The notes beneath the pieces were generated by a model that saw nothing but the letters and a program-made list of their open reading frames with translations, made no database searches and had not been told where the DNA came from. The translations under genes and the position numbers were made by a program. This document shows, in pieces, positions 5,814 through 33,734 of a stretch of DNA of 42,515 nt. The stretch's first letter is position 1; each line of letters opens with the position of its first letter. Location: the sequence record PP754824.1. One strand, written 5' to 3'. The stretch comes from a phage.

Positions 5814-5889
5814 TGGTGTTCCGCGCTGGACTCGAACCAGCAACTAAGACTTAGGAGGTCTTTGCGTTATCCTGTTACGCCAGCAGAAC
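5814..5889 (-). tRNA. tRNA-Arg (anticodon CCU), CCA encoded
   Basis: Hand-folded cloverleaf on the minus strand: 7-bp acceptor stem GTTCTGC/GCGGAAC (one G-U), D-arm GCGT/ACGC, anticodon stem AAGAC/GTCTT with loop CTCCTAA, T-arm GCTGG-TTCGAGT-CCAGC, discriminator A, CCA. Confidence 0.8.
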
Positions 5890-5900
5890 AAATATTTAAG

Positions 5901-5917
5901 TAGCGATTGCGCTATTT
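5901..5917 (-). promoter_or_regulatory. box-family variant (AATAGCGCAATCGCTA) 12 nt upstream of the tRNA
   Basis: Palindromic variant of the repeated box; no -10 at the usual 22-nt spacing, which would fall inside the tRNA. Confidence 0.35.
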
Positions 5918-6088
5918 AAAGATTGCTGGTTACGCCTCCAGCGTCGAGTTTCTCGACCGGTTATTGAGGTTTGCGCCTTATCCTCTTTGGCCAACTTGCC
6001 ATGCACGCTACTTAATTAGCAATGGACTTTGTGTTGCGCTCCGTGCGCCGTTCTAGCTTGGCTAGCTCGTATGCCTACGAGATAAATA

Positions 6089-6355
6089 CTAATACTTTCC
6101 TGTCAGTGATGCAATCTCTTTTTCATACCTAACGAAATCCAGCGTGCTTTTACAAACCATTAGGTCAACATTTGAGTTAACAATCTTCCCGCAAACTGTA
6201 CAGATTAGCTTTGTCCTACACCCATCCTGATACGAATCCTCAAACCAACTTATGCGTCGGAATAATCTATATTTATGCTTATGTAGAATTCCGACCTTAA
6301 ACATTAGTGACTTGATCTTATTCATAAAGGCTATTCCCATTCTCATCGTGGTCAA
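6089..6355 (-). CDS. hypothetical protein (88 aa)
   Basis: ORF track only. Confidence 0.4.
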   Translation of the reverse strand: MTTMRMGIAFMNKIKSLMFKVGILHKHKYRLFRRISWFEDSYQDGCRTKLICTVCGKIVNSNVDLMVCKSTLDFVRYEKEIASLTGKY

Positions 6356-6554
6356 CGCGACCTTTTCTATACCCAGCTATCCACACAAATTTATCCCTCG
6401 CAATTAGCGTAGACACAGGACCCCAAACCTGAGTAATCAGTGCTGCGACAACTTTATCGTCTTTCTTCTTTGCGCCCAACTTTCCGTACTCGTCGTTCAG
6501 CTTGTCAGCCTGGTGCTTAACTGCGTTGAAGTATGCATCTTCTAATCCGAACAT
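6318..6554 (-). CDS. hypothetical protein (78 aa)
   Basis: ORF track; promoter box and -10 upstream. Confidence 0.45.
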   Translation of the reverse strand: MFGLEDAYFNAVKHQADKLNDEYGKLGAKKKDDKVVAALITQVWGPVSTLIARDKFVWIAGYRKGRVDHDENGNSLYE

Positions 6555-6583
6555 TTTCTGCCCTCTCGTTGTTTGATTGGTTG

Positions 6584-6630
6584 ATTATATGGCATCAATG
6601 CCTGTCACGTTTAGCTATTCGTGCTGTCTA
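6584..6630 (-). promoter_or_regulatory. conserved promoter box (CAGCACGAATAGCTAA), 22-nt spacer, -10 TATAAT
   Basis: Box overlaps the 3' end of the upstream small ORF; spacer contains hairpin GGCATTGATGCC. Confidence 0.55.
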
Positions 6631-6769
6631 CATCTGGCCCTCTATCAAAAGTTGCTAATACTTCGTCTGTATCGCCATCGCACTCAAACGTGTCACCGTA
6701 TTTCTCATTGAAGTAGATTAAATCCTCAACAAATTCATCACATTTCGGGAATAAACATGTGTTAAGCAT
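6611..6769 (-). CDS. small hypothetical protein (52 aa)
   Basis: ATG at 6769 overlaps stop of upstream ORF (ATGCTTAA); below the 60-aa ORF-track cutoff; stop codon lies inside the promoter box. Confidence 0.35.
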   Translation of the reverse strand: MLNTCLFPKCDEFVEDLIYFNEKYGDTFECDGDTDEVLATFDRGPDVDSTNS

Positions 6770-6920
6770 TTTTCTTATCCTCGCCCTTATTTAGACCACG
6801 CTTTTCCTCACGCTCTTTCCAGATATTCATTAACTCAAAGTACATCATGGCAATCTCGCCAGTCTCAGCATCATCCATCATTCTCTTAGCCCACTGGCTT
6901 GGTTTTTCGTAGTTATCCAT
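6762..6920 (-). CDS. small hypothetical protein (52 aa)
   Basis: Hand-translated minus-strand ORF in a tightly packed early gene array. Confidence 0.3.
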   Translation of the reverse strand: MDNYEKPSQWAKRMMDDAETGEIAMMYFELMNIWKEREEKRGLNKGEDKKNA

Positions 6921-7500: not shown

Positions 7501-7548
7501 ATTATGCCGGATTTCTCCGGCGATTGTTTAGCAATTCGTGCTATTGTC
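7501..7548 (-). promoter_or_regulatory. conserved promoter box (AATAGCACGAATTGCTAAACAATCGCC), 22-nt spacer, -10 CATAAT
   Basis: Canonical box copy; TAG stop of 7541..7879 lies inside the box; spacer hairpin CCGGAGAAATCCGG. Confidence 0.6.
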
Positions 7549-8662: not shown

Positions 8663-8845
8663 GTGTTATCTCATGTTATTTTCAGCCAGATACGCCAAAC
8701 CACTCTGAGAGCCGCGCCAGAAGCGGTGTAAATGTCGTGTGTATGAATTTCCGCGGAAATGTCGGGGGTATACCTATATATATTAATATAGATAAATATA
8801 GTCATTTTCATAAAAAACTATCGACCCTCCCCATATGACAGATAT

Positions 8846-8950
8846 ACAAGATATACATATATATAATAATAATAATAATAATAAAGTAAAAGGTTGATAT
8901 ATATAGATATTATTATGTAACCATTGCGTAATTGCGCGTTATAGGCGTAC
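8846..8950. repeat. AT-rich ~100-bp element, copy A, with (TAA)n microsatellite
   Basis: Near-identical to 24310..24420: shared GATATACA, (ATA/TAA)n, AGTAAAAGGTTGATATATATAGATATT, ATGTAACCA, TGCGTAA. Confidence 0.7.
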
Positions 8951-9111
8951 AGCATTCCTACGGAGGGTGGGTGCATCTACACAACATAACTTCGGTAACG
9001 TGTACATCCAAAATGGCTCAGCCAGAATCAAAATCAACTTGTATGGTAGTCCTTCCTCTATTCATTCACTCCAACACAAATAATTGCTAAATTCGCAACA
9101 ATCAAAAAAAT

Positions 9112-9860: not shown

Positions 9861-10021
9861 TGCTATTACCATCTGAGATTAACTATTTTGATCTGGAAGT
9901 TATTAGTTCTTACAGCGGCAAGGGCTGGCCTTGCGGGGAATGGTTCAACGAGGACTTGCTTGAATCTCACGAGATTATGCTTAAGGCGATTGAGAAGGCG
10001 AGAAATAGCACGAATTGCTAA
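9860..10021 (+). CDS. small hypothetical protein (53 aa)
   Basis: Hand-translated; ATG overlaps upstream TAA; coding 3' end (ARNSTNC) is encoded by the promoter box. Confidence 0.35.
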   Translation: MLLPSEINYFDLEVISSYSGKGWPCGEWFNEDLLESHEIMLKAIEKARNSTNC

Positions 10022-10048
10022 AGCCCTTCGGGGCTTTTGTTGTATAGT
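10004..10048 (+). promoter_or_regulatory. conserved promoter box (AATAGCACGAATTGCTAA), 22-nt spacer, -10 TATAGT
   Basis: Canonical box; spacer is hairpin AGCCCTTCGGGGCT plus T-run; leader CATCGAAACGAAAGAG. Confidence 0.6.
10021..10038 (+). terminator. rho-independent terminator-like hairpin inside the promoter spacer
   Basis: AGCCCTTCGGGGCT followed by TTTTGTTG. Confidence 0.5.
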
Positions 10049-13763: not shown

Positions 13764-13790
13764 ACAAAAAAGGGGAGCCAAAAGGCCCCC
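13764..13790 (-). terminator. rho-independent terminator (minus strand)
   Basis: GGGGGGCCTTTTGGCTCCCC followed by TTTTTT on the minus strand. Confidence 0.6.
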
Positions 13791-13817
13791 CACTTGTAAA
13801 ACTATGTTTTTGATGTG

Positions 13818-13991
13818 TTAATCTGCGATAATAAATTCCACCAAAGAGCCATCAATCGGCGCAAGGATGTGAGTCATATCGTCGCCATAAATCTTGTAGT
13901 AACCGCTACCAAGATGCTCGCCGCTGTATGGCTGATTCTCAGTAAACGGAAGCGTCTTTGAGTTGTTTTTCACGCAGTATAGTTTAGTCAT
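13818..13991 (-). CDS. small hypothetical protein (57 aa)
   Basis: Hand-translated; promoter box, TATAAT and RBS upstream. Confidence 0.4.
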   Translation of the reverse strand: MTKLYCVKNNSKTLPFTENQPYSGEHLGSGYYKIYGDDMTHILAPIDGSLVEFIIAD

Positions 13992-14022
13992 TTTTGAATC
14001 CTCTGTTGTTTTCGATTTGGTG

Positions 14023-14067
14023 ATTATACCTAATTGCTGTGGCGATTGTTTAGCGATTAGTGCTATT
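14023..14067 (-). promoter_or_regulatory. conserved promoter box (AATAGCACTAATCGCTAAACAATCGCC), 22-nt spacer, -10 TATAAT
   Basis: Canonical architecture; leader AATCGAAAACAACAGAGG. Confidence 0.6.
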
Positions 14068-14069
14068 TA

Positions 14070-15209
14070 TTACATTCCAGGTCGATAGATATGACGACCA
14101 ACCTCGCCAAACTCTTTGTGATAAACAATCGCGGCAGCCTGACGATATGAGCGCCACCCCCCTCGTGCTGCATACGCATCCTTGCTTGCTAGTGCTGGAT
14201 GTACTTCGTCAATACCAAGAGTGCACTCTGTTACTGTTGCGTGGTGAAAATGCCCGGAATGGCAATAAACGAACTCGCATTCACCAAAGTCTTTCCTGTA
14301 ATCAGTTGCCATAGCTGCAAGTCTACCTTCCGCTTTCTTCATTGTGTGACCATGAGTGTAGCCAAGTAGTGTTGAGCCAAATCTTGTCTTGTGCATAATC
14401 GCAGGGCTTACATCAACAAAGACACGACTCTCATTTTCATAAAATGCAGCCATCGCAGCCCGAAGCCAGATCATGCCGCTTTGGTCATGATTTCCCTCGA
14501 TAATTTGAATGTCAACACTTTTATGCTTTTTAAGCATCTTTTCTACAGCGCCACGAATTGATCTAATTGCGATGTAGACTAACTTAGCGTAACGGCTATC
14601 TTGGTCAAGGCAGTGGCCACTAGCTGGAGTTACCGCCTCAAGACCATCTGAGTGGAGATAATCACCGCCAACAAGGATGACTGCCTTTTCTGAAGCTGGC
14701 GAAACTGATATTGCATGGTCAAAGTATGAGCCCATTAGTTTTTCTGCCGTTGCCGTGTCATAATTTTCACCAGACTCGTGGCGATGGGCCATCATTCCAA
14801 TATGTATGTCGAAAATTGGATACAGTGTCATTAGGTCAGGGTTTGTATCTTTGCCTGAATGCTTAACTTCCTCACACTTTGGCAACTCAGAACAGAAAGC
14901 CTCTCGCGCTTGCTCGAGCATAATTTCAAGGCGTTCATTATCAACGCTCGTCTTAACCCAGCGCAGCTTCTCATTCCCATCCGCATCAATCATGGTTGAA
15001 GTACCCTTGACTAAATAGCCGTCCGGCACTAACTTCTTGATACCATCATTGCCATGCCCAAACAAACCACTCTTAGCTAACTTACTGCGACGAAGTTCAA
15101 CGTTGCGAATGTTCATGTCGTACTTCTCCGCAATCGCCTTGTTAGTCATGCCGTTTTTAAGTTCTTCGATTAGCTGATCGTTGGTAATCTTTGCTACTGT
15201 CATTTTCAA
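14070..15209 (-). CDS. calcineurin-like metallophosphoesterase with N-terminal helix-turn-helix domain (379 aa)
   Basis: Metallophosphatase signature blocks DIHIG, GGDYLHSDG, EGNHD, GYTHGH, CHSGHFHH; N-terminal 50 aa resemble an HTH (NKAIAEKYDMNIRNVELRRSKL). Confidence 0.65.
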   Translation of the reverse strand: MKMTVAKITNDQLIEELKNGMTNKAIAEKYDMNIRNVELRRSKLAKSGLFGHGNDGIKKLVPDGYLVKGTSTMIDADGNEKLRWVKTSVDNERLEIMLEQAREAFCSELPKCEEVKHSGKDTNPDLMTLYPIFDIHIGMMAHRHESGENYDTATAEKLMGSYFDHAISVSPASEKAVILVGGDYLHSDGLEAVTPASGHCLDQDSRYAKLVYIAIRSIRGAVEKMLKKHKSVDIQIIEGNHDQSGMIWLRAAMAAFYENESRVFVDVSPAIMHKTRFGSTLLGYTHGHTMKKAEGRLAAMATDYRKDFGECEFVYCHSGHFHHATVTECTLGIDEVHPALASKDAYAARGGWRSYRQAAAIVYHKEFGEVGRHIYRPGM

Positions 15210-15284
15210 ATCCTTAGTTCATCACGATAAAATATAAGATAGTAAAGCTAAACAGTGGTACTAATACTACTAGGGCGGCGTACT

Positions 15285-15536
15285 TCATACAACCTCCTTC
15301 AGCCAGTAATCAATTAAATTCGCACTAATTGCTAATTTCTCGTCCAGGTCAGTCATGCAGAGATTGCCGCACGCTGGCGAGTAATAAATCTGAACCCACT
15401 TTCCATCCTTCGTCTTCGCATTAACATCCGCATAGTCAGGAGGAAACCAATCAGCAATAGGTATCGCCCTAAACTTAGCACCACTACTCCCACTCACCAA
15501 ATCATAATGCTCAGGCTGAAAATCTAATCCAAACAT
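15285..15536 (-). CDS. hypothetical protein (83 aa)
   Basis: ORF track. Confidence 0.45.
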   Translation of the reverse strand: MFGLDFQPEHYDLVSGSSGAKFRAIPIADWFPPDYADVNAKTKDGKWVQIYYSPACGNLCMTDLDEKLAISANLIDYWLKEVV

Positions 15537-15538
15537 AA

Positions 15539-15781
15539 CTAACCCTTCGTTATCTTAAATTTGAATCCCTGCTCTTTCAGGAACTCATTTGTGTCTATCG
15601 TTACGCCAGGCTTAACCCTGACATACTTGCGCGGCCTTTCATCCATGTACGTAAATTTACCGTTGAAAATAACGCTGATATCTTTTATATCAAAATACTT
15701 AGATATCATCTTAATGTCATCCTGAAGCCCAGCCTCTGCGCAGTGGGTCCATACCGCGGCCCTTCCTGTTTCAACTATCAT
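15539..15781 (-). CDS. hypothetical protein (80 aa)
   Basis: ORF track. Confidence 0.45.
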   Translation of the reverse strand: MIVETGRAAVWTHCAEAGLQDDIKMISKYFDIKDISVIFNGKFTYMDERPRKYVRVKPGVTIDTNEFLKEQGFKFKITKG

Positions 15782-15903
15782 AAGCCGTATGCCATTTTCA
15801 GGTATTCACGAGCGCACACCCATGACCATTGTGAATTATTCTTAACAGCGTCAATCGCATAAACCTGTGCAATCTCGAACATCTCTTTATCTAAGATTTT
15901 CAT
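15778..15903 (-). CDS. small hypothetical protein (41 aa)
   Basis: Hand-translated; ATGA and TAATG overlaps with both neighbours. Confidence 0.3.
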   Translation of the reverse strand: MKILDKEMFEIAQVYAIDAVKNNSQWSWVCAREYLKMAYGL

Positions 15904-16124
15904 TATTTAAAATCCTCTGGGCAATCTTTCTTCATCTCTGCAATGTCTGCAACCATTCGGTCGCGCCACGTTTCGATATCAGTTCGCAAGTAATCTTCCT
16001 CAAAACTATAATCCAGGCAACGAGCCAAATCCCAAACATCACCTTTATATCCAGCCTTGTGCAACTCCTGCGATGCCATTGCCTGAAATAACTCCCACTG
16101 CTTGTCAAAGGTTAAAATCGCCAT
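15903..16124 (-). CDS. small acidic protein (73 aa)
   Basis: ORF track; D/E-rich. Confidence 0.45.
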   Translation of the reverse strand: MAILTFDKQWELFQAMASQELHKAGYKGDVWDLARCLDYSFEEDYLRTDIETWRDRMVADIAEMKKDCPEDFK

Positions 16125-16324
16125 TACTCAGATACCTCATCAAATTTCTCGCCAAACGCGTTTTTAACAGTTTCTAAATCGTCTTTGTAAGTTGGGCTGA
16201 CTTCAAATGCGTAGTTAACATCTTCAACATCAATAAGAATATAACCATCATCTGTGATAGCAAGTGAGTATTGGTAACCGGTCTTGCGTGATTCGTAGAA
16301 TTTTCCAGTATAGATAGTAGCCAT
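16124..16324 (-). CDS. small acidic protein (66 aa)
   Basis: ORF track; D/E-rich; promoter box upstream. Confidence 0.45.
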   Translation of the reverse strand: MATIYTGKFYESRKTGYQYSLAITDDGYILIDVEDVNYAFEVSPTYKDDLETVKNAFGEKFDEVSE

Positions 16325-16362: not shown

Positions 16363-16407
16363 ATAATACACCACTTCATCAATTCGTCTTTAGCAATTCG
16401 TGCTATT
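16363..16407 (-). promoter_or_regulatory. conserved promoter box (AATAGCACGAATTGCTAA), 22-nt spacer, -10 TATTAT
   Basis: TAG stop of 16403..16822 lies in the box; -10 inside inverted repeat GATGAAGTG..CACTTCATC; leader CATCGAAACGAAACACACG. Confidence 0.6.
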
Positions 16408-20376: not shown

Positions 20377-20407
20377 ATTGCCTGAAAGATGGTAGAATGA
20401 ATTTTAT

Positions 20408-20423
20408 CAATTAGTGCTATTTT
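20408..20423 (-). promoter_or_regulatory. box-family copy in anomalous orientation upstream of the plus-strand tail fibre gene
   Basis: Plus strand reads CAATTAGTGCTATTTT, i.e. the box on the minus strand; no good -10 at the 22-nt spacing. Confidence 0.3.
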
Positions 20424-20441: not shown

Positions 20442-21620
20442 ATGGCAATTTATGATTCTGGCACAGCAAGCCTGGCAGCCAACGGTACCGTAACTGGTAC
20501 TGGAACCAACTGGATGGCTCCGCTTACTCTCATTCGTGTAGGCGCCACTATTGTGTTCAAAACTGAACCAGTGAAGATTTACACTATCTCTGAAATTATC
20601 AGCGATACGCAGATTAATGTATACAACCCAAATTCTGAAACCGTTGCTGCTGGAACTGGTTACGCCATTCTTCTTCATGATGGTATTACAGTTCAGGGTT
20701 TGGCACAGGACGTAGCCGAGACGCTTAGATTTTATCAGTCAAATAATTATGTGAGCGGTGGTGATGATGGGAATGTAAAATTAGAGAACGGAGGAACAGG
20801 AGCTAGTACAGCACCTGAAGCGCGTAACAACCTCGGGCTTGGTCCATTGTCCACAGTTAATGTGGCTCCAATAGAGAACGGAGGAACAGGAGCTAGTACA
20901 GCACCTGAAGCGCGTAACAACCTCGGGCTTGGAACTTCTGCTGTCATTGATCATGGCTATGATCCTGGGCAGGTTCAACTAGTTTTTGGATCAAGGATAA
21001 TGCGAACCGACAAGCCCAAAACAACCTGGACGTATGGATATGAACCTATTAGTCCAACCAACTTATACTACCTAGATTATGTTGTATTTATGGATATGCC
21101 TGGACCAACTGCTAGAGAGTGGGCTCAGCTTGCCGTTTCTTATGCGGAAAGGAGATGCTATATAGCTAACTCAACTTATAATAACGGCCTTGGGTTCATG
21201 GAACTTTACCACTCACAAAACGTAACCGTAGACTCTAACGGTTTCCTTAAAAAGGCTTCTCCTATAATTAAAGTCTTCAGTGATGGTGGTTTTGAAACAA
21301 ACGAGCAATCAAAGGGAGCTACAGTGGAGAGAGTTTCCACTGGTGTTTATAGGGTATCAGGTGTGCTTGGTCTAAATTCGGATGCCTCCTGGGGTGGTGT
21401 TAATGGTGGCTTTGAGATACCTTTAGATGCAAACAAGCAGCCAAGAATATGGCTAGATTATGAGGTTGAGTCTAATGGCTCAATAGTAGTAAAAACTTAC
21501 CATCGAACTCACGATTCATCCCCGTCCTTTGCAAGAAATAAAGTTGAAGGTTTTAGTAACGGCGATCCTATAGATATTCCTTCTGACTCTTTCGTTTCAA
21601 TTCGAGTAAATATGCCATAA
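20442..21620 (+). CDS. tail fibre protein with tandem fibre-repeat motifs (392 aa)
   Basis: Two copies of ENGGTGASTAPEARNNLGLG (phage tail-fibre repeat type); separate plus-strand transcription unit with own RBS and terminator. Confidence 0.7.
   Translation: MAIYDSGTASLAANGTVTGTGTNWMAPLTLIRVGATIVFKTEPVKIYTISEIISDTQINVYNPNSETVAAGTGYAILLHDGITVQGLAQDVAETLRFYQSNNYVSGGDDGNVKLENGGTGASTAPEARNNLGLGPLSTVNVAPIENGGTGASTAPEARNNLGLGTSAVIDHGYDPGQVQLVFGSRIMRTDKPKTTWTYGYEPISPTNLYYLDYVVFMDMPGPTAREWAQLAVSYAERRCYIANSTYNNGLGFMELYHSQNVTVDSNGFLKKASPIIKVFSDGGFETNEQSKGATVERVSTGVYRVSGVLGLNSDASWGGVNGGFEIPLDANKQPRIWLDYEVESNGSIVVKTYHRTHDSSPSFARNKVEGFSNGDPIDIPSDSFVSIRVNMP
20784..20932 (+). repeat. two perfect 59-bp direct repeats (20784..20842 and 20874..20932) inside the tail fibre gene
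   Basis: Identical nucleotide strings GAGAACGGAGGAACAGGAGCTAGTACAGCACCTGAAGCGCGTAACAACCTCGGGCTTGG. Confidence 0.9.
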
Positions 21621-22805: not shown

Positions 22806-22850
22806 ACTATACCTAAGTCATCCCGTTTTGTTTTAGCAATTCGTGCTGTT
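22806..22850 (-). promoter_or_regulatory. conserved promoter box (CAGCACGAATTGCTAA), 22-nt spacer, -10 TATAGT
   Basis: Box overlaps the stop of the exonuclease gene; leader AATCAACAACGAACGAGG. Confidence 0.6.
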
Positions 22851-24309: not shown

Positions 24310-24420
24310 GTTACATGATATACACAGTAATATATATAATAATAATAATAAGAGTAAAAGGTTGATATATATAGATATTTTAATGTAACCAATGCGTAAA
24401 TTGGCGTAACAGCGCGTATA
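24310..24420. repeat. AT-rich ~100-bp element, copy B, with (TAA)n microsatellite
   Basis: Near-identical to 8846..8950; lies in the second divergent intergenic region. Confidence 0.7.
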
Positions 24421-24499: not shown

Positions 24500-24544
24500 A
24501 ATAGCACGATTTGCTAAAGACAACTGGCTATCTTTAGGTATATT
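24500..24544 (+). promoter_or_regulatory. conserved promoter box (AATAGCACGATTTGCTAA), 22-nt spacer, -10 TATATT
   Basis: Plus-strand copy ahead of the 24625..26101 gene set. Confidence 0.55.
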
Positions 24545-25456: not shown

Positions 25457-25726
25457 ATGAACTACGAGAAAGAGATTGCAAAAGCGAAGAAAGAGCTCAA
25501 TGAAAAGGTTGTGACAATCCTGGTAAACAACGCTCTTTTTGTTAAGCGCGCAGAGTTACTAGCAGATGACGACCCTGTCAGAAATGAGTTAATAAATCAC
25601 ATCACTGAGTCTTCATTTATTATCTCTGGCGCCCTTAAATGCACGGTCGAGCAGGCTCTTAACTTGATATTCGCTTATCGGCATTACAATGTTAAGTCCA
25701 TTCCTGGCTGTGAGGATATTCACTAA
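25457..25726 (+). CDS. hypothetical protein (89 aa)
   Basis: ORF track. Confidence 0.45.
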   Translation: MNYEKEIAKAKKELNEKVVTILVNNALFVKRAELLADDDPVRNELINHITESSFIISGALKCTVEQALNLIFAYRHYNVKSIPGCEDIH

Positions 25727-25769
25727 TAGCACTAATTGCTAAACACTTATCGCAAGGATGCGGTATTAT
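25725..25769 (+). promoter_or_regulatory. conserved promoter box (AATAGCACTAATTGCTAA), 22-nt spacer, -10 TATTAT
   Basis: Leader CATCGAAACGAAACACAC then RBS AAGGAA and ATG at 25810. Confidence 0.6.
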
Positions 25770-33689: not shown

Positions 33690-33734
33690 ATTATAGCAAG
33701 CCAAATCCTTTTGGCTTTACCATTTTGTGCTATT
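33690..33734 (-). promoter_or_regulatory. conserved promoter box variant (AATAGCACAAAATGGTAA), 22-nt spacer, -10 TATAAT
   Basis: Spacer hairpin AGCCAAAAGGATTTGGCT; RBS AAGGAG; drives the HNH gene. Confidence 0.55.

What the first reader, a model, noticed from the sequence alone, without database searches (positions are those of the whole stretch)
14070..15209. Fusion of an N-terminal HTH domain with a calcineurin-like metallophosphoesterase
The 379-aa protein has metallophosphatase metal-binding blocks (DIHIG, GGDYLHSDG, GNHD, GHT, HSGHFHH) after a ~50-aa HTH-like N-terminus. It is expressed from a conserved-box promoter among replication genes. Possible roles are a DNA-targeted phosphoesterase/nuclease or a protein phosphatase acting on host factors.
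Basis: partly seen in the sequence, partly recalled or inferred. Interest (0 to 1): 0.5.

Follow-up and report, generated by a model that had tools for sequence, protein, structure and literature searches.

The report
T1-type phage HTH-tethered metallophosphoesterase nuclease
This is the window's copy of a widespread, already annotated but never tested phage core gene (T1 gp16 family): a small DNA-binding domain tied to an Mre11-like two-metal phosphoesterase, and a reasonable candidate for the still unidentified enzyme with which T1-like phages break down host DNA.

Summary
The gene is on the minus strand, 14070-15203. It starts at ATG 15203, not TTG 15209, and encodes 377 aa. The window is a Drexlerviridae (Christensenvirus) coliphage, and the protein is 100% identical to annotated proteins of phages TR2, TR3 and Rao1. 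It is the ortholog of T1 gp16 and TLS gp66 (PHROG 704, "DNA repair exonuclease").

No conserved-box promoter lies directly upstream. The nearest one (16389-16406) heads a seven-gene operon, and another lies just downstream of the stop codon.

My best reading is a DNA-tethered Mn-dependent nuclease, most likely acting in host-DNA breakdown. This rests on analogy with T5 A1/A2 and mycobacteriophage Gp48; the function itself is untested. The protein is not a member of the Mre11/SbcD, T5 A1 or Gp48 families by sequence.

In passing I found a conserved, unannotated 24-aa hydrophobic mini-gene translationally coupled to it. Overall this is an ordinary architecture with a worthwhile open function.

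The parts
14070..15203 (-). HTH-metallophosphoesterase gene (377 aa plus stop). Ortholog of T1 gp16 and TLS gp66; PHROG 704.
   Evidence: ORF list. SD and ATG. 100% identical to the TR2 CDS UXQ90351. PHROG 704 at E 2e-147.
15069..15182 (-). N-terminal tri-helical HTH, residues 8-45, of the LuxR/GerE/sigma-70 region-4 type.
15024..15068 (-). Flexible linker, residues 46-60.
   Evidence: pLDDT below 50 for residues 49-55 in the full-length model. Length is variable in the family: 46-125 residues precede the hairpin.
14892..15023 (-). Family-specific beta-hairpin plus helix, residues 61-104, with signature VKGTSTxxDxDGxxxxxWVKT.
   Evidence: Strands 63-72 and 78-87, helix 89-104, pLDDT above 90. 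W82 is in 128/131, G76 in 120/131, S69 in 114/131 and K84 in 114/131 relatives. Largely retained in the HTH-less Fletchervirus homolog, which matches PHROG 704 from profile position 78.
14073..14843 (-). Metallophosphoesterase catalytic core, residues 121-377, with all five motifs.
15214..15288 (-). Unannotated 24-aa hydrophobic mini-ORF, MKYAALVVLVPLFSFTILYFIVMN. Its ATG overlaps the stop of the upstream gene, and its TAA overlaps the SD of the HTH-MPE gene.
   Evidence: Sequence. A comparable hydrophobic ORF occurs at the same place in 24 of 36 Drexlerviridae-type loci and in T1. Shuffles give a mean of 1.26 (maximum 4), and the reverse strand gives 3.
15285..16324 (-). Five small, tightly packed or overlapping upstream genes of the same transcription unit (66, 73, 41, 80 and 83 aa; PHROGs 6031, 2676, 2817 and 4596, all of unknown function).
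   Evidence: ORF list. PHROG hits. No minus-strand terminator-like site between 16389 and 14070.
16363..16406 (-). Conserved-box promoter heading the operon: box ATAGCACGAATTGCTAAA at 16389-16406 and -10 TATTAT at 16363-16368.
   Evidence: Exact box match. In register with the other copies (family D1).
14023..14066 (-). Second conserved-box promoter, immediately downstream of the gene's stop codon. It serves the 57-aa SH3-like gene and the lysis cassette.
   Evidence: Box with 2 mismatches at 14049-14066. TAAACA-18-TATAAT at 14052-14023.

Best explanation
The gene encodes a two-metal (probably Mn2+) phosphodiesterase of the nuclease branch of the calcineurin-like superfamily. A flexible ~15-residue linker ties it to a small LuxR/sigma-70-region-4-type HTH.

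Proposed mechanism (inferred):
- The HTH holds the enzyme on double-stranded DNA.
- The catalytic core, capped by a family-specific beta-hairpin/helix module, cleaves phosphodiester bonds in DNA.

Expression: the gene is the last of a seven-gene early/middle operon. It is translationally coupled to a 24-aa membrane-type peptide and sits just before the lysis cassette.

Most likely biological role (inferred by analogy): it takes part in the breakdown of host DNA, and so in nucleotide supply, which T1 and TLS are known to carry out but for which no gene has been identified.

Shown here: the domain architecture, the intact active site, the fold neighbours and the gene context. Not shown: DNA binding, nuclease activity, the substrate and the phenotype.
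For: Active site and fold:
- The active site is intact under strong purifying selection in 131 relatives at 31-59% identity.
- Motif II is GD(F/Y)LH with the His kept in 97% of relatives. From my own knowledge, Mre11 has GDLFH.
- Conserved basic residues K84, R204 and R260 fit a polyanionic substrate.
- The N-terminus is a DNA-binding-type HTH.

Open question in T1/TLS:
- Both phages degrade the host genome and reuse the nucleotides, and the responsible gene is explicitly unidentified (PMC11447400).

Precedents from two other phage MPE families:
- T5 A1 is necessary and sufficient for host DNA digestion in vivo, and T5 encodes a separate HTH-type DNA-binding protein, A2, beside it (bioRxiv 10.64898/2026.04.02.716235).
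- Purified mycobacteriophage A10ZJ24 Gp48 degrades linear, plasmid and genomic DNA (PMC12287305).

Gene context:
- In about a quarter of related loci, a HAD phosphatase and a dNMP-kinase-like P-loop protein follow immediately downstream. The HAD phosphatase falls in PHROG 415, the same PHROG as T5 Dmp.; also noted in PMC13164509.
- In other phages the gene sits next to thymidylate synthase and dCMP deaminase, or next to DNA ligase.
- It is a persistent gene, present in 508 of 522 Drexlerviridae (PMC13164509).
Against: - There is no biochemical or genetic test of this family; five literature searches found none.
- Sequence-profile links to T5 A1, Bxb1 gp47 and SbcD are confined to the generic GNHD region, at hhalign probability 8-13%. 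The analogy is therefore at superfamily level only.
- The family is also common in prophages of Proteobacteria. Wholesale host-DNA destruction is less expected in temperate phages.
- The window phage itself lacks the HAD and kinase partners.
- How phage DNA would be spared is unexplained.
Confidence: 0.45

Rival explanations
1. A Rad50-independent, Mre11-like end-processing or structure-specific nuclease. It would act on phage replication and recombination intermediates together with the phage RecE-like exonuclease, Erf recombinase, SSB and VRR-NUC, rather than on host DNA.
For: - Same fold evidence as the best explanation.
- The gene lies at the end of the replication/recombination gene block.
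- The Fletchervirus homolog sits directly after a DNA ligase and near a Holliday-junction resolvase.
- There is a weak PdeM (ligase-associated nuclease) hit.
- Presence in temperate prophages fits a housekeeping DNA-processing role.
- Databases name it 'DNA repair exonuclease'.
Against: - There is no SbcC/Rad50 partner and no capping domain.
- It is not in the SbcD PHROG.
- The phage already encodes other recombination nucleases.
- The frequent neighbours, a nucleotidase and a kinase, point to nucleotide metabolism.
Confidence: 0.25
2. A nucleic-acid end-healing phosphoesterase (2',3'-cyclic phosphodiesterase or 3'-phosphatase). It would work with a split Pnkp (HAD 3'-phosphatase plus P-loop 5'-kinase) to repair RNA or DNA cut by host defence nucleases. 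From my own knowledge, the metallophosphoesterase domain of bacterial Pnkp works this way.
For: - The HAD_PNKP-type phosphatase (Pfam E 1.7e-16; PDB Pnkp1 E 1.3e-05, T4 Pnk E 0.005) and a P-loop kinase lie immediately downstream, often with overlapping stop and start codons, in about 22 of 85 viral loci from several lineages.
Against: - The window phage and most relatives lack both partners.
- In T1 the partners lie 35 kb away.
- No ligase is present.
- The HTH suggests duplex DNA.
- The fold neighbours are nucleases.
Confidence: 0.1
3. A small-molecule phosphodiesterase, for example one that degrades cyclic-nucleotide immune signals or other nucleotides. The HTH would serve autoregulation or localisation.
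For: Class III cNMP phosphodiesterases and other small-substrate MPEs are good fold matches: MJ0936 14.0, YfcE 12.6, Rv0805 12.4, GpdQ 12.1.
Against: - There is no match to any known defence or anti-defence model (PADLOC).
- There is no precedent for an HTH on such enzymes.
- The top fold hits are nucleases, with longer aligned lengths of 186-210 residues.
Confidence: 0.07
4. Primarily a transcription factor, as some GenBank records annotate it, acting at phage promoters. The phosphoesterase domain would be a regulatory or secondary activity.
For: - The HTH is sigma-70 region-4/LuxR-like.
- The phage has a conserved palindromic box (TAGCA-N5-TGCTA) at ten promoter-like sites, for which no binder is known.
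- It is annotated 'transcriptional regulator', 'DNA binding protein' or 'sigma-70 region 4 domain-containing protein' in some records.
Against: - Catalytic residues are invariant while the HTH is the least conserved part.
- The HTH is absent in Fletchervirus homologs.
- The box is restricted to Drexlerviridae-type loci, whereas the protein family is far wider.
- The phage has a separate 160-aa regulator.
Confidence: 0.05
5. A lambda-phosphatase-like Ser/Thr/Tyr protein phosphatase acting on host factors.
For: It has the generic metallophosphatase motifs. From my own knowledge, phage lambda encodes such an enzyme.
Against: - Motif II is GGDYLHSDG, not GDxVDRG.
- No Pfam, NCBIfam or PDB sequence hit to PPP enzymes was found.
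Confidence: 0.03

Closest known systems
T1 gp16 (ST16) / TLS gp66 / PHROG 704 'DNA repair exonuclease'
   Same: Direct orthologs, 64% and 58% identical. They share the length, the HTH-hairpin-MPE architecture and the position between the replication genes and the lysis cassette. The upstream mini-ORF is also present in T1.
   Different: Nothing essential differs. The family's names ('DNA repair exonuclease', 'proof-reading exonuclease', 'phosphoesterase', 'DNA binding protein', 'transcriptional regulator') are all computational. I found no experiment.
Mre11 / SbcD double-strand-break nucleases
   Different: No C-terminal capping domain and no Rad50/SbcC partner gene. It is not in the SbcD PHROG, and hhalign gives only 13% probability. 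It carries an N-terminal HTH and hairpin module that Mre11 lacks.
Archaeal PolD small subunit DP1 (3'-5' proofreading exonuclease)
   Different: Only 12% identity. T1-type phages encode no DNA polymerase for it to proofread. There is no DP2 partner.
Phage T5 A1 (metallophosphatase) with A2 (DNA-binding protein) and Dmp
   Same: A phage MPE whose fold neighbours are likewise Mre11 and proofreading exonucleases. It is necessary and sufficient for host DNA degradation. T5 pairs it with an HTH-type DNA-binding protein and a small membrane protein encoded between them. Its Dmp nucleotidase falls in the same PHROG 415 as the HAD protein that follows the gene in many relatives.
   Different: A different family (PHROG 1745; 556 aa). 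hhalign gives 12% probability, limited to the NHD..S.WL stretch. In T5 the HTH is a separate protein. T5 A1 is pre-early and also controls DNA transfer.
Cluster A mycobacteriophage MPE (A10ZJ24 Gp48; Bxb1 gp47)
   Same: A phage-encoded MPE shown in vitro to degrade DNA and in vivo to break host genome integrity. It is needed for phage DNA replication in M. tuberculosis (PMC12287305).
   Different: A different family (PHROG 221; about 255 aa; no HTH; motif I at residue 10). hhalign gives 8% probability.
Pseudomonas putida nuclease MPE / PdeM (ligase-associated DNA damage response)
   Different: Far below the family cut-off (16.9 against 150 bits). About 200 aa, with no HTH or hairpin module.

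Membership tests
Calcineurin-like metallophosphoesterase superfamily | Five motifs supplying the binuclear-metal ligands: DxH, GD, GNH(D/E), H, GHxH. | tested here: met
   D132/H134, D181, N238/H239, H284 and H318/H320 are present. They are 96-100% conserved in 131 relatives.
Calcineurin-like metallophosphoesterase superfamily | MPE beta-sandwich fold. | tested here: met
Calcineurin-like metallophosphoesterase superfamily | Pfam Metallophos / Metallophos_2 score above the gathering threshold. | tested here: not met
   PF12850 scores 16.4 bits against a cut-off of 27. Only 25 and 18 of 101 relatives hit PF00149 and PF12850 at E up to 0.01. This is a divergent family that the Pfam models barely reach.
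PHROG 704 (T1 gp16-like 'DNA repair exonuclease') | Full-length match to the family profile. | tested here: met
   E 2.2e-147, residues 6-379 against profile positions 2-388 of 390.
Mre11/SbcD nucleases | Sequence-profile membership. | tested here: not met
   E. coli SbcD maps to PHROG 100, not to 704 or 284. hhalign of the family against SbcD gives 13% probability over 17 columns.
Mre11/SbcD nucleases | Capping domain after the nuclease core. | tested here: not met
   The model ends with the MPE core at residue 377, with no extra C-terminal domain.
Mre11/SbcD nucleases | Adjacent Rad50/SbcC SMC-like ATPase partner. | tested here: not met
   There is no such gene in the 19 kb of phage TR2 shown around the identical gene or in the whole T1 genome. 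The window has no ORF of that kind: its large ORFs, by size and position, look like tail fibre, tape measure and helicase (not checked by homology).
Mre11/SbcD nucleases | Mn2+-dependent exo/endonuclease activity on DNA. | not testable with these tools
   Needs purified protein.
LuxR/GerE / sigma-70 region 4 HTH | Tri-helical HTH fold with a recognition helix. | tested here: met
LuxR/GerE / sigma-70 region 4 HTH | Pfam GerE or Sigma70_r4 above threshold. | tested here: not met
   The window protein scores 11.9 bits on GerE against a cut-off of 23.5. Some relatives do reach it, with best E 1.5e-09 for Sigma70_r4_2 and 2.4e-08 for GerE. The HTH subtype varies among relatives (HTH_1, HTH_8, HTH_50, HTH_23/28 and others).
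LuxR/GerE / sigma-70 region 4 HTH | DNA binding. | not testable with these tools
   Needs EMSA or ChIP.
PPP protein phosphatases (lambda phosphatase type) | GDxVDRG and GNHE signatures, and closest fold. | tested here: not met
T5 A1 family (PHROG 1745) | Sequence-profile membership. | tested here: not met
   T5 A1 hits only PHROG 1745. hhalign gives 12% probability over 19 columns.
Mycobacteriophage MPE / Bxb1 gp47 family (PHROG 221) | Sequence-profile membership. | tested here: not met
   Bxb1 gp47 hits PHROG 221 and 20266. hhalign gives 8% probability.
Pnkp-type end-healing module | Co-encoded polynucleotide 3'-phosphatase and 5'-kinase. | tested here: not met
   There is no HAD or P-loop kinase homolog anywhere in the window. 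They are present immediately downstream in about 22 of 85 related loci, including TR2 with its identical MPE.

The most novel reading that the evidence does not exclude
The HTH-MPE is the long-sought nuclease that destroys the host chromosome in T1-like phages. From memory, this is the classical T1 'gene 2.5' high-transduction phenotype; the open status of the question is stated in PMC11447400. It would be a single-chain counterpart of the T5 A1 (MPE) plus A2 (DNA-binding) pair. The conserved, unannotated 23-24-aa membrane peptide translationally coupled to it would be part of the system, for example to restrain or localise the nuclease. The variable HTH would provide discrimination between host and phage DNA.
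Probability: 0.2. Interest if true: 0.6.

Novelty: new member of a known kind. Interest (0 to 1): 0.4.

Why it matters
The family is one of the most widespread uncharacterised enzymes of tailed phages. It occurs in about 4% of all GenBank phage genomes and in 508 of 522 Drexlerviridae, and it has thousands of prophage relatives. Its annotations contradict one another.

T1 and TLS degrade the host genome and recycle the nucleotides, and the gene responsible has never been identified. Two unrelated phage metallophosphoesterase families (T5 A1 and mycobacteriophage Gp48) were recently tied to exactly that activity. This makes the gene a concrete, cheaply testable candidate.

If confirmed, three results would follow:
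- It would give a third, independently evolved MPE host-DNA nuclease.
- It would explain the high-transduction T1 mutants.
- It would be relevant to phage therapy and to engineering T1-like phages, through transduction risk and through defence systems that sense host-DNA breakdown products.

If it is only a recombination nuclease, it is ordinary.

Tried and rejected
Searches that gave nothing useful:
- PDB sequence search with the single protein returned only a FixJ HTH at E = 2. With the family profile it returned only marginal GerE and Mre11/SbcD hits, E 0.02-0.2.
- PADLOC gave no hit, so there is no support for a link to a known defence system.
- NCBIfam gave only far-sub-threshold PdeM and FixJ hits.
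- PHROG search with three mini-peptides found no family.
- Five literature searches for any experiment on this family found none.

Family comparisons that did not support membership:
- hhalign of the family profile against T5 A1, Bxb1 gp47 and E. coli SbcD matched only the GNHD region, at 8-13% probability. I therefore did not file the protein in any of those families.
- I tested whether PHROG 284 'exonuclease' (E 3e-13 to this protein) is the SbcD family. SbcD goes to PHROG 100 instead, so that lead gave no functional anchor.
- BLASTP of the TR2 HAD protein against T5 Dmp was weak (E 0.019), although both fall in PHROG 415. I kept this as a lead only.

- The AlphaFold-database fold library was unavailable.

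Ideas rejected:
- The HTH binds the conserved promoter box. The box is confined to Drexlerviridae-type loci, while the protein family extends far beyond them.
- The gene is a small terminase or a packaging nuclease. The phage has its own TerS and TerL elsewhere.
Full report
**What is there.**
- The window is a T1-like coliphage. The 1140-bp interval is 100% identical to Escherichia phages TR2, TR3 and Rao1 (Drexlerviridae, Braunvirinae, Christensenvirus). It is about 80% identical to many other Braunvirinae.
- The ORF is on the minus strand. The plus strand is closed by many stops.
- The mechanical ORF starts at TTG 15209, but that codon lies 1 nt after the Shine-Dalgarno AAGGA. ATG 15203 lies 7 nt after it, and TR2 annotates the 377-aa form. 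The gene is therefore 14070-15203 (-), 377 aa.

**It is a real, large family.**
- The protein matches PHROG 704 ("DNA repair exonuclease") over its full length at E 2e-147.
- tblastn finds homologs in 2016 of 50,697 phage records. These include Drexlerviridae, Kagunavirus/Guernseyvirinae, Dhillonvirus, Klebsiella, Salmonella and Vibrio siphoviruses, Rhodobacter Casjensviridae, N4-like Ruegeria phages and Campylobacter Fletchervirus.
- An exhaustive HMMER scan finds 4649 clusters at 50% identity, 1061 of them below E 1e-30 and most 370-420 aa long.
- T1 gene 16 and TLS gene 66 are the orthologs.
- The 52 copies found in bacterial genomes (Alpha-, Beta- and Gammaproteobacteria) lie in prophages. 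Sampled recurrent neighbour families are endolysin, large terminase, integrase, primase, a connector protein (head-tail adaptor) and tape measure.

**Catalytic domain.**
- In an alignment of 131 relatives at 31-59% identity, the metal ligands and catalytic His are essentially invariant:

| Residues | Conserved in |
|---|---|
| D132, H134, D181, H320 | 131/131 |
| N238, H239, H284 | 130/131 |
| H318 | 126/131 |

- Motif II carries a His (H184, 127/131).
- The family also has its own conserved elements. One is the hairpin VKGxSTLYDxxGxxxxQWVKT (W82 in 128/131). Another is TPxSGHxLDxDxR between motifs II and III (D200 in 130/131, R204 in 126/131).
- Pfam barely sees the domain: Metallophos_2 scores 16.4 bits against a cut-off of 27. 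That probably explains the inconsistent database names.

**Structure.**
- AlphaFold2 with this alignment gives a confident model: mean pLDDT 93, pTM 0.78.
- Its layout is three helices (8-44), a disordered linker (pLDDT below 50 at 49-55), a beta-hairpin (63-87) plus helix (89-104), and then the MPE core (121-377) with no further domain.
- Small phosphodiesterases follow: MJ0936 14.0, LpxH 13.4, YfcE 12.6 and Rv0805 12.4.
- PPP protein phosphatases score only 8.8-10.7, and P. putida nuclease MPE scores 9.3.
- In the viral structure library the relatives are uncharacterised phage proteins. Several are auto-named "DNA polymerase II small subunit". This is presumably the same DP1 resemblance behind TLS gp66's label "proof-reading exonuclease".

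**N-terminal domain.**
- The window protein itself gives only weak sequence signals:

| Match | E-value |
|---|---|
| GerE (Pfam) | 0.18 |
| FixJ (NCBIfam) | 0.0097 |
| FixJ (PDB) | 2 |
| PHROG 3855 "HTH DNA binding protein" | 0.002 |

- Across 101 relatives, many different HTH Pfam families are hit, including HTH_1 (20 members), HTH_8 (18) and HTH_50 (12). Others reached low best E-values: Sigma70_r4_2 (9 members, 1.5e-09) and GerE (3 members, 2.4e-08). Transposase-, resolvase- and NUMOD-type HTHs are also hit.
- The family profile finds GerE in the PDB at E 0.024.
- A separate model of residues 1-58 (pLDDT 73) gives the classic three helices.
- The refutation condition of the finding ([quoted passage not shown]) is therefore not met.
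- All 131 full-length relatives have 46-125 residues ahead of the hairpin.
- The Fletchervirus homolog (317 aa) lacks the HTH but keeps most of the hairpin and the core. The HTH is thus an exchangeable accessory and the least conserved part.

**Expression context.**
ATAGCACGAATTGCTAAA occurs 10 times with at most 3 mismatches, against 0.06 expected.
- The box contains the inverted repeat TAGCA-N5-TGCTA and is followed about 19 nt later by a TATAAT-like hexamer.
- None lies directly upstream of this gene. The nearest on the minus strand (16389-16406) precedes five small overlapping genes, the mini-ORF and then the HTH-MPE gene.
- No terminator-like site lies between them. The gene is therefore probably the last cistron of that operon (inference).
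- A second box (14049-14066) begins 4 nt after the stop codon. It serves the 57-aa DUF7244/SH3-like gene and, after a strong terminator at 13772-13791, the holin-endolysin-spanin cassette.
- The box is shared by Drexlerviridae-type loci, including T1. It is absent from the Kagunavirus, Dhillonvirus and prophage loci that also carry the protein. So it is not the family's general DNA target.

**Clues to function from neighbours.**
- A recent pangenome analysis reports the module exonuclease-holin-endolysin-spanin in 508 of 522 Drexlerviridae. It also notes that "polynucleotide kinase" and "dNMP kinase" genes are the commonest genes right after the exonuclease when the SH3 gene is absent (PMC13164509).
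- I confirmed this independently. In about 22 of 85 viral loci from at least four lineages, a HAD protein follows immediately on the same strand. In all but two of those loci a P-loop kinase comes next. The lineages include TR2 with an identical MPE, Klebsiella phages at 64% identity, Kagunavirus at 45%, and others at 41-42%.
- In Kagunavirus K1ind1 the three genes form a self-contained cassette among tail genes.
- The "polynucleotide kinase" is really a HAD phosphatase: Pfam HAD_PNKP 1.7e-16; PDB Pnkp1 1.3e-05, T4 Pnk 0.005. It belongs to PHROG 415, and T5 Dmp (the dNMP 5'-phosphatase) also scores E 3.6e-57 against that PHROG. Direct BLASTP between the two is weak.
- The "ATPase" matches PHROG 139, dNMP kinase.
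- The window phage has neither gene. T1 has both at its left end.
- Elsewhere the gene sits after thymidylate synthase and dCMP deaminase (Ruegeria N4-like phage), after DNA ligase (Fletchervirus), or beside endolysins.

**What it most likely does.**
- The TLS re-annotation paper states that T1 and TLS enzymatically degrade the host genome and reuse the nucleotides. It adds that the responsible early gene products have not been identified (PMC11447400).
- Two other phage MPE families have recently been tied to exactly this activity:
  - T5 A1 is necessary and sufficient for chromosome digestion in vivo. Its authors describe its fold neighbours as DSB-repair and proofreading nucleases. T5 encodes beside it the DNA-binding protein A2, a small membrane protein and Dmp.
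  - Purified mycobacteriophage A10ZJ24 Gp48 degrades linear, plasmid and genomic DNA, and motif mutants are dead (PMC12287305).
- The T1 family is not a sequence-level member of either, nor of SbcD. The argument is therefore "works like", not "is a".
- I commit to this reading: a DNA-tethered Mn-dependent nuclease whose main role is host-DNA breakdown and nucleotide supply (confidence 0.45).
- The chief rival is a Rad50-independent recombination or replication-intermediate nuclease (0.25). The family's abundance in temperate prophages and its ligase and resolvase neighbours favour that rival.
- Other readings rank lower: end-healing with a split Pnkp (0.10), small-molecule phosphodiesterase (0.07), transcription factor (0.05) and protein phosphatase (0.03).

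**Side observation.**
- Between the upstream 83-aa gene and the HTH-MPE gene lies an unannotated 24-codon ORF at 15288-15214 (-), encoding MKYAALVVLVPLFSFTILYFIVMN.
- It has its own GGAGG. Its ATG overlaps the upstream stop, and its TAA is embedded in the MPE gene's Shine-Dalgarno.
- A hydrophobic 17-29-aa ORF occupies the same position in 24 of 36 Drexlerviridae-type loci, down to about 56% MPE identity, and in T1 itself. Shuffled sequence gives a mean of 1.26 (maximum 4), and the reverse strand gives 3. A recognisable pattern is kept: a central Pro and a C-terminal (I/L)(M/L)Y(F/Y)(I/L)(V/I)M.
- No PHROG covers it. It is not annotated in TR2, RobRod40 or T1.
- It looks like a genuine micro-gene translationally coupled to the nuclease gene.

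**Verdict.**
- The protein is identical to deposited sequences and belongs to a known, annotated, persistent phage family. The architecture itself is therefore not new.
- What remains open, and cheap to test, is its function. The unexplained host-DNA degradation of T1-like phages gives that question some weight.

Noticed in passing
window 15214-15288 (-): An unannotated 24-aa hydrophobic mini-ORF, MKYAALVVLVPLFSFTILYFIVMN, is translationally coupled to the HTH-MPE gene. It is conserved in position and character in 24 of 36 related loci and in T1, against about 1 expected from shuffles. No PHROG covers it.
   Followed up: partly
window 6610-6627, 7527-7544, 10005-10022, 14049-14066, 16389-16406, 20403-20420, 22832-22849, 24501-24518, 25726-25743, 33716-33733: An 18-nt box, ATAGCACGAATTGCTAAA, containing the inverted repeat TAGCA-N5-TGCTA, sits about 19 nt upstream of TATAAT-like hexamers. 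There are 10 copies against 0.06 expected. It is shared with T1 and other Drexlerviridae-type loci but absent from Kagunavirus, Dhillonvirus and prophage loci. It looks like an operator or activator site overlapping the -35 region, and its binder is unknown. The copy at 20403-20420 (-) points into the 3' end of the primase gene, antisense to it.
   Followed up: partly
window 13992-14069 compared with L001 (phage TR2) 7713-9000: Phage TR2 has an identical MPE gene but carries a ~1.15-kb insertion here. The insertion encodes a HAD_PNKP-type phosphatase (annotated 'polynucleotide kinase'; same PHROG 415 as T5 Dmp) and a dNMP-kinase-like P-loop protein. The window phage and RobRod40 lack both. T1 has them at its left end, split by an HNH gene.
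   Followed up: yes
window 13818-13991 (-): A 57-aa DUF7244 protein (Pfam E 8e-27) has its own box promoter and is followed by a strong terminator at 13772-13791. It is the stand-alone SH3-like protein recently described as a lysis-module component of Drexlerviridae (PMC13164509).
   Followed up: partly
window 20782-20842 and 20872-20932: A perfect 61-nt direct repeat with copies 90 nt apart lies inside the 392-aa ORF 20442-21620 (+). That ORF is probably a lateral tail fibre protein, so this would be an in-frame 30-aa duplication.
   Followed up: no
window 8762-8967 and 24312-24412: Two AT-rich stretches 15.4 kb apart share 60-nt (87%) and 40-nt (80%) repeats rich in TATATA and ATAATAATAA. 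They are candidates for regulatory or origin-like regions.
   Followed up: no
GenBank records MG065688 and MG065649 (Campylobacter phages A110b, A143), PP134917 (Pseudomonas phage PsgS01F) and OR786094 (Streptococcus phage MBBL140): These records are labelled with non-enterobacterial hosts, yet at this gene they match T1-like coliphages: 79-80% nucleotide identity to the window (MG065688, PP134917), about 57% protein identity (MG065649), and 93% to TLS gene 66 (OR786094). PsgS01F has the same length, 44,679 bp, as E. coli phage vB_EcoS_UALMA_PCEc3. The host labels or the samples look doubtful.
   Followed up: no
L142 (Bxb1) 5876-6788: In the RefSeq Bxb1 record the product name 'site-specific recombination directionality factor RDF' is attached to the 46-aa gp46. 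The metallophosphoesterase gp47 is the published RDF, to my knowledge. This looks like an annotation shift.
   Followed up: no
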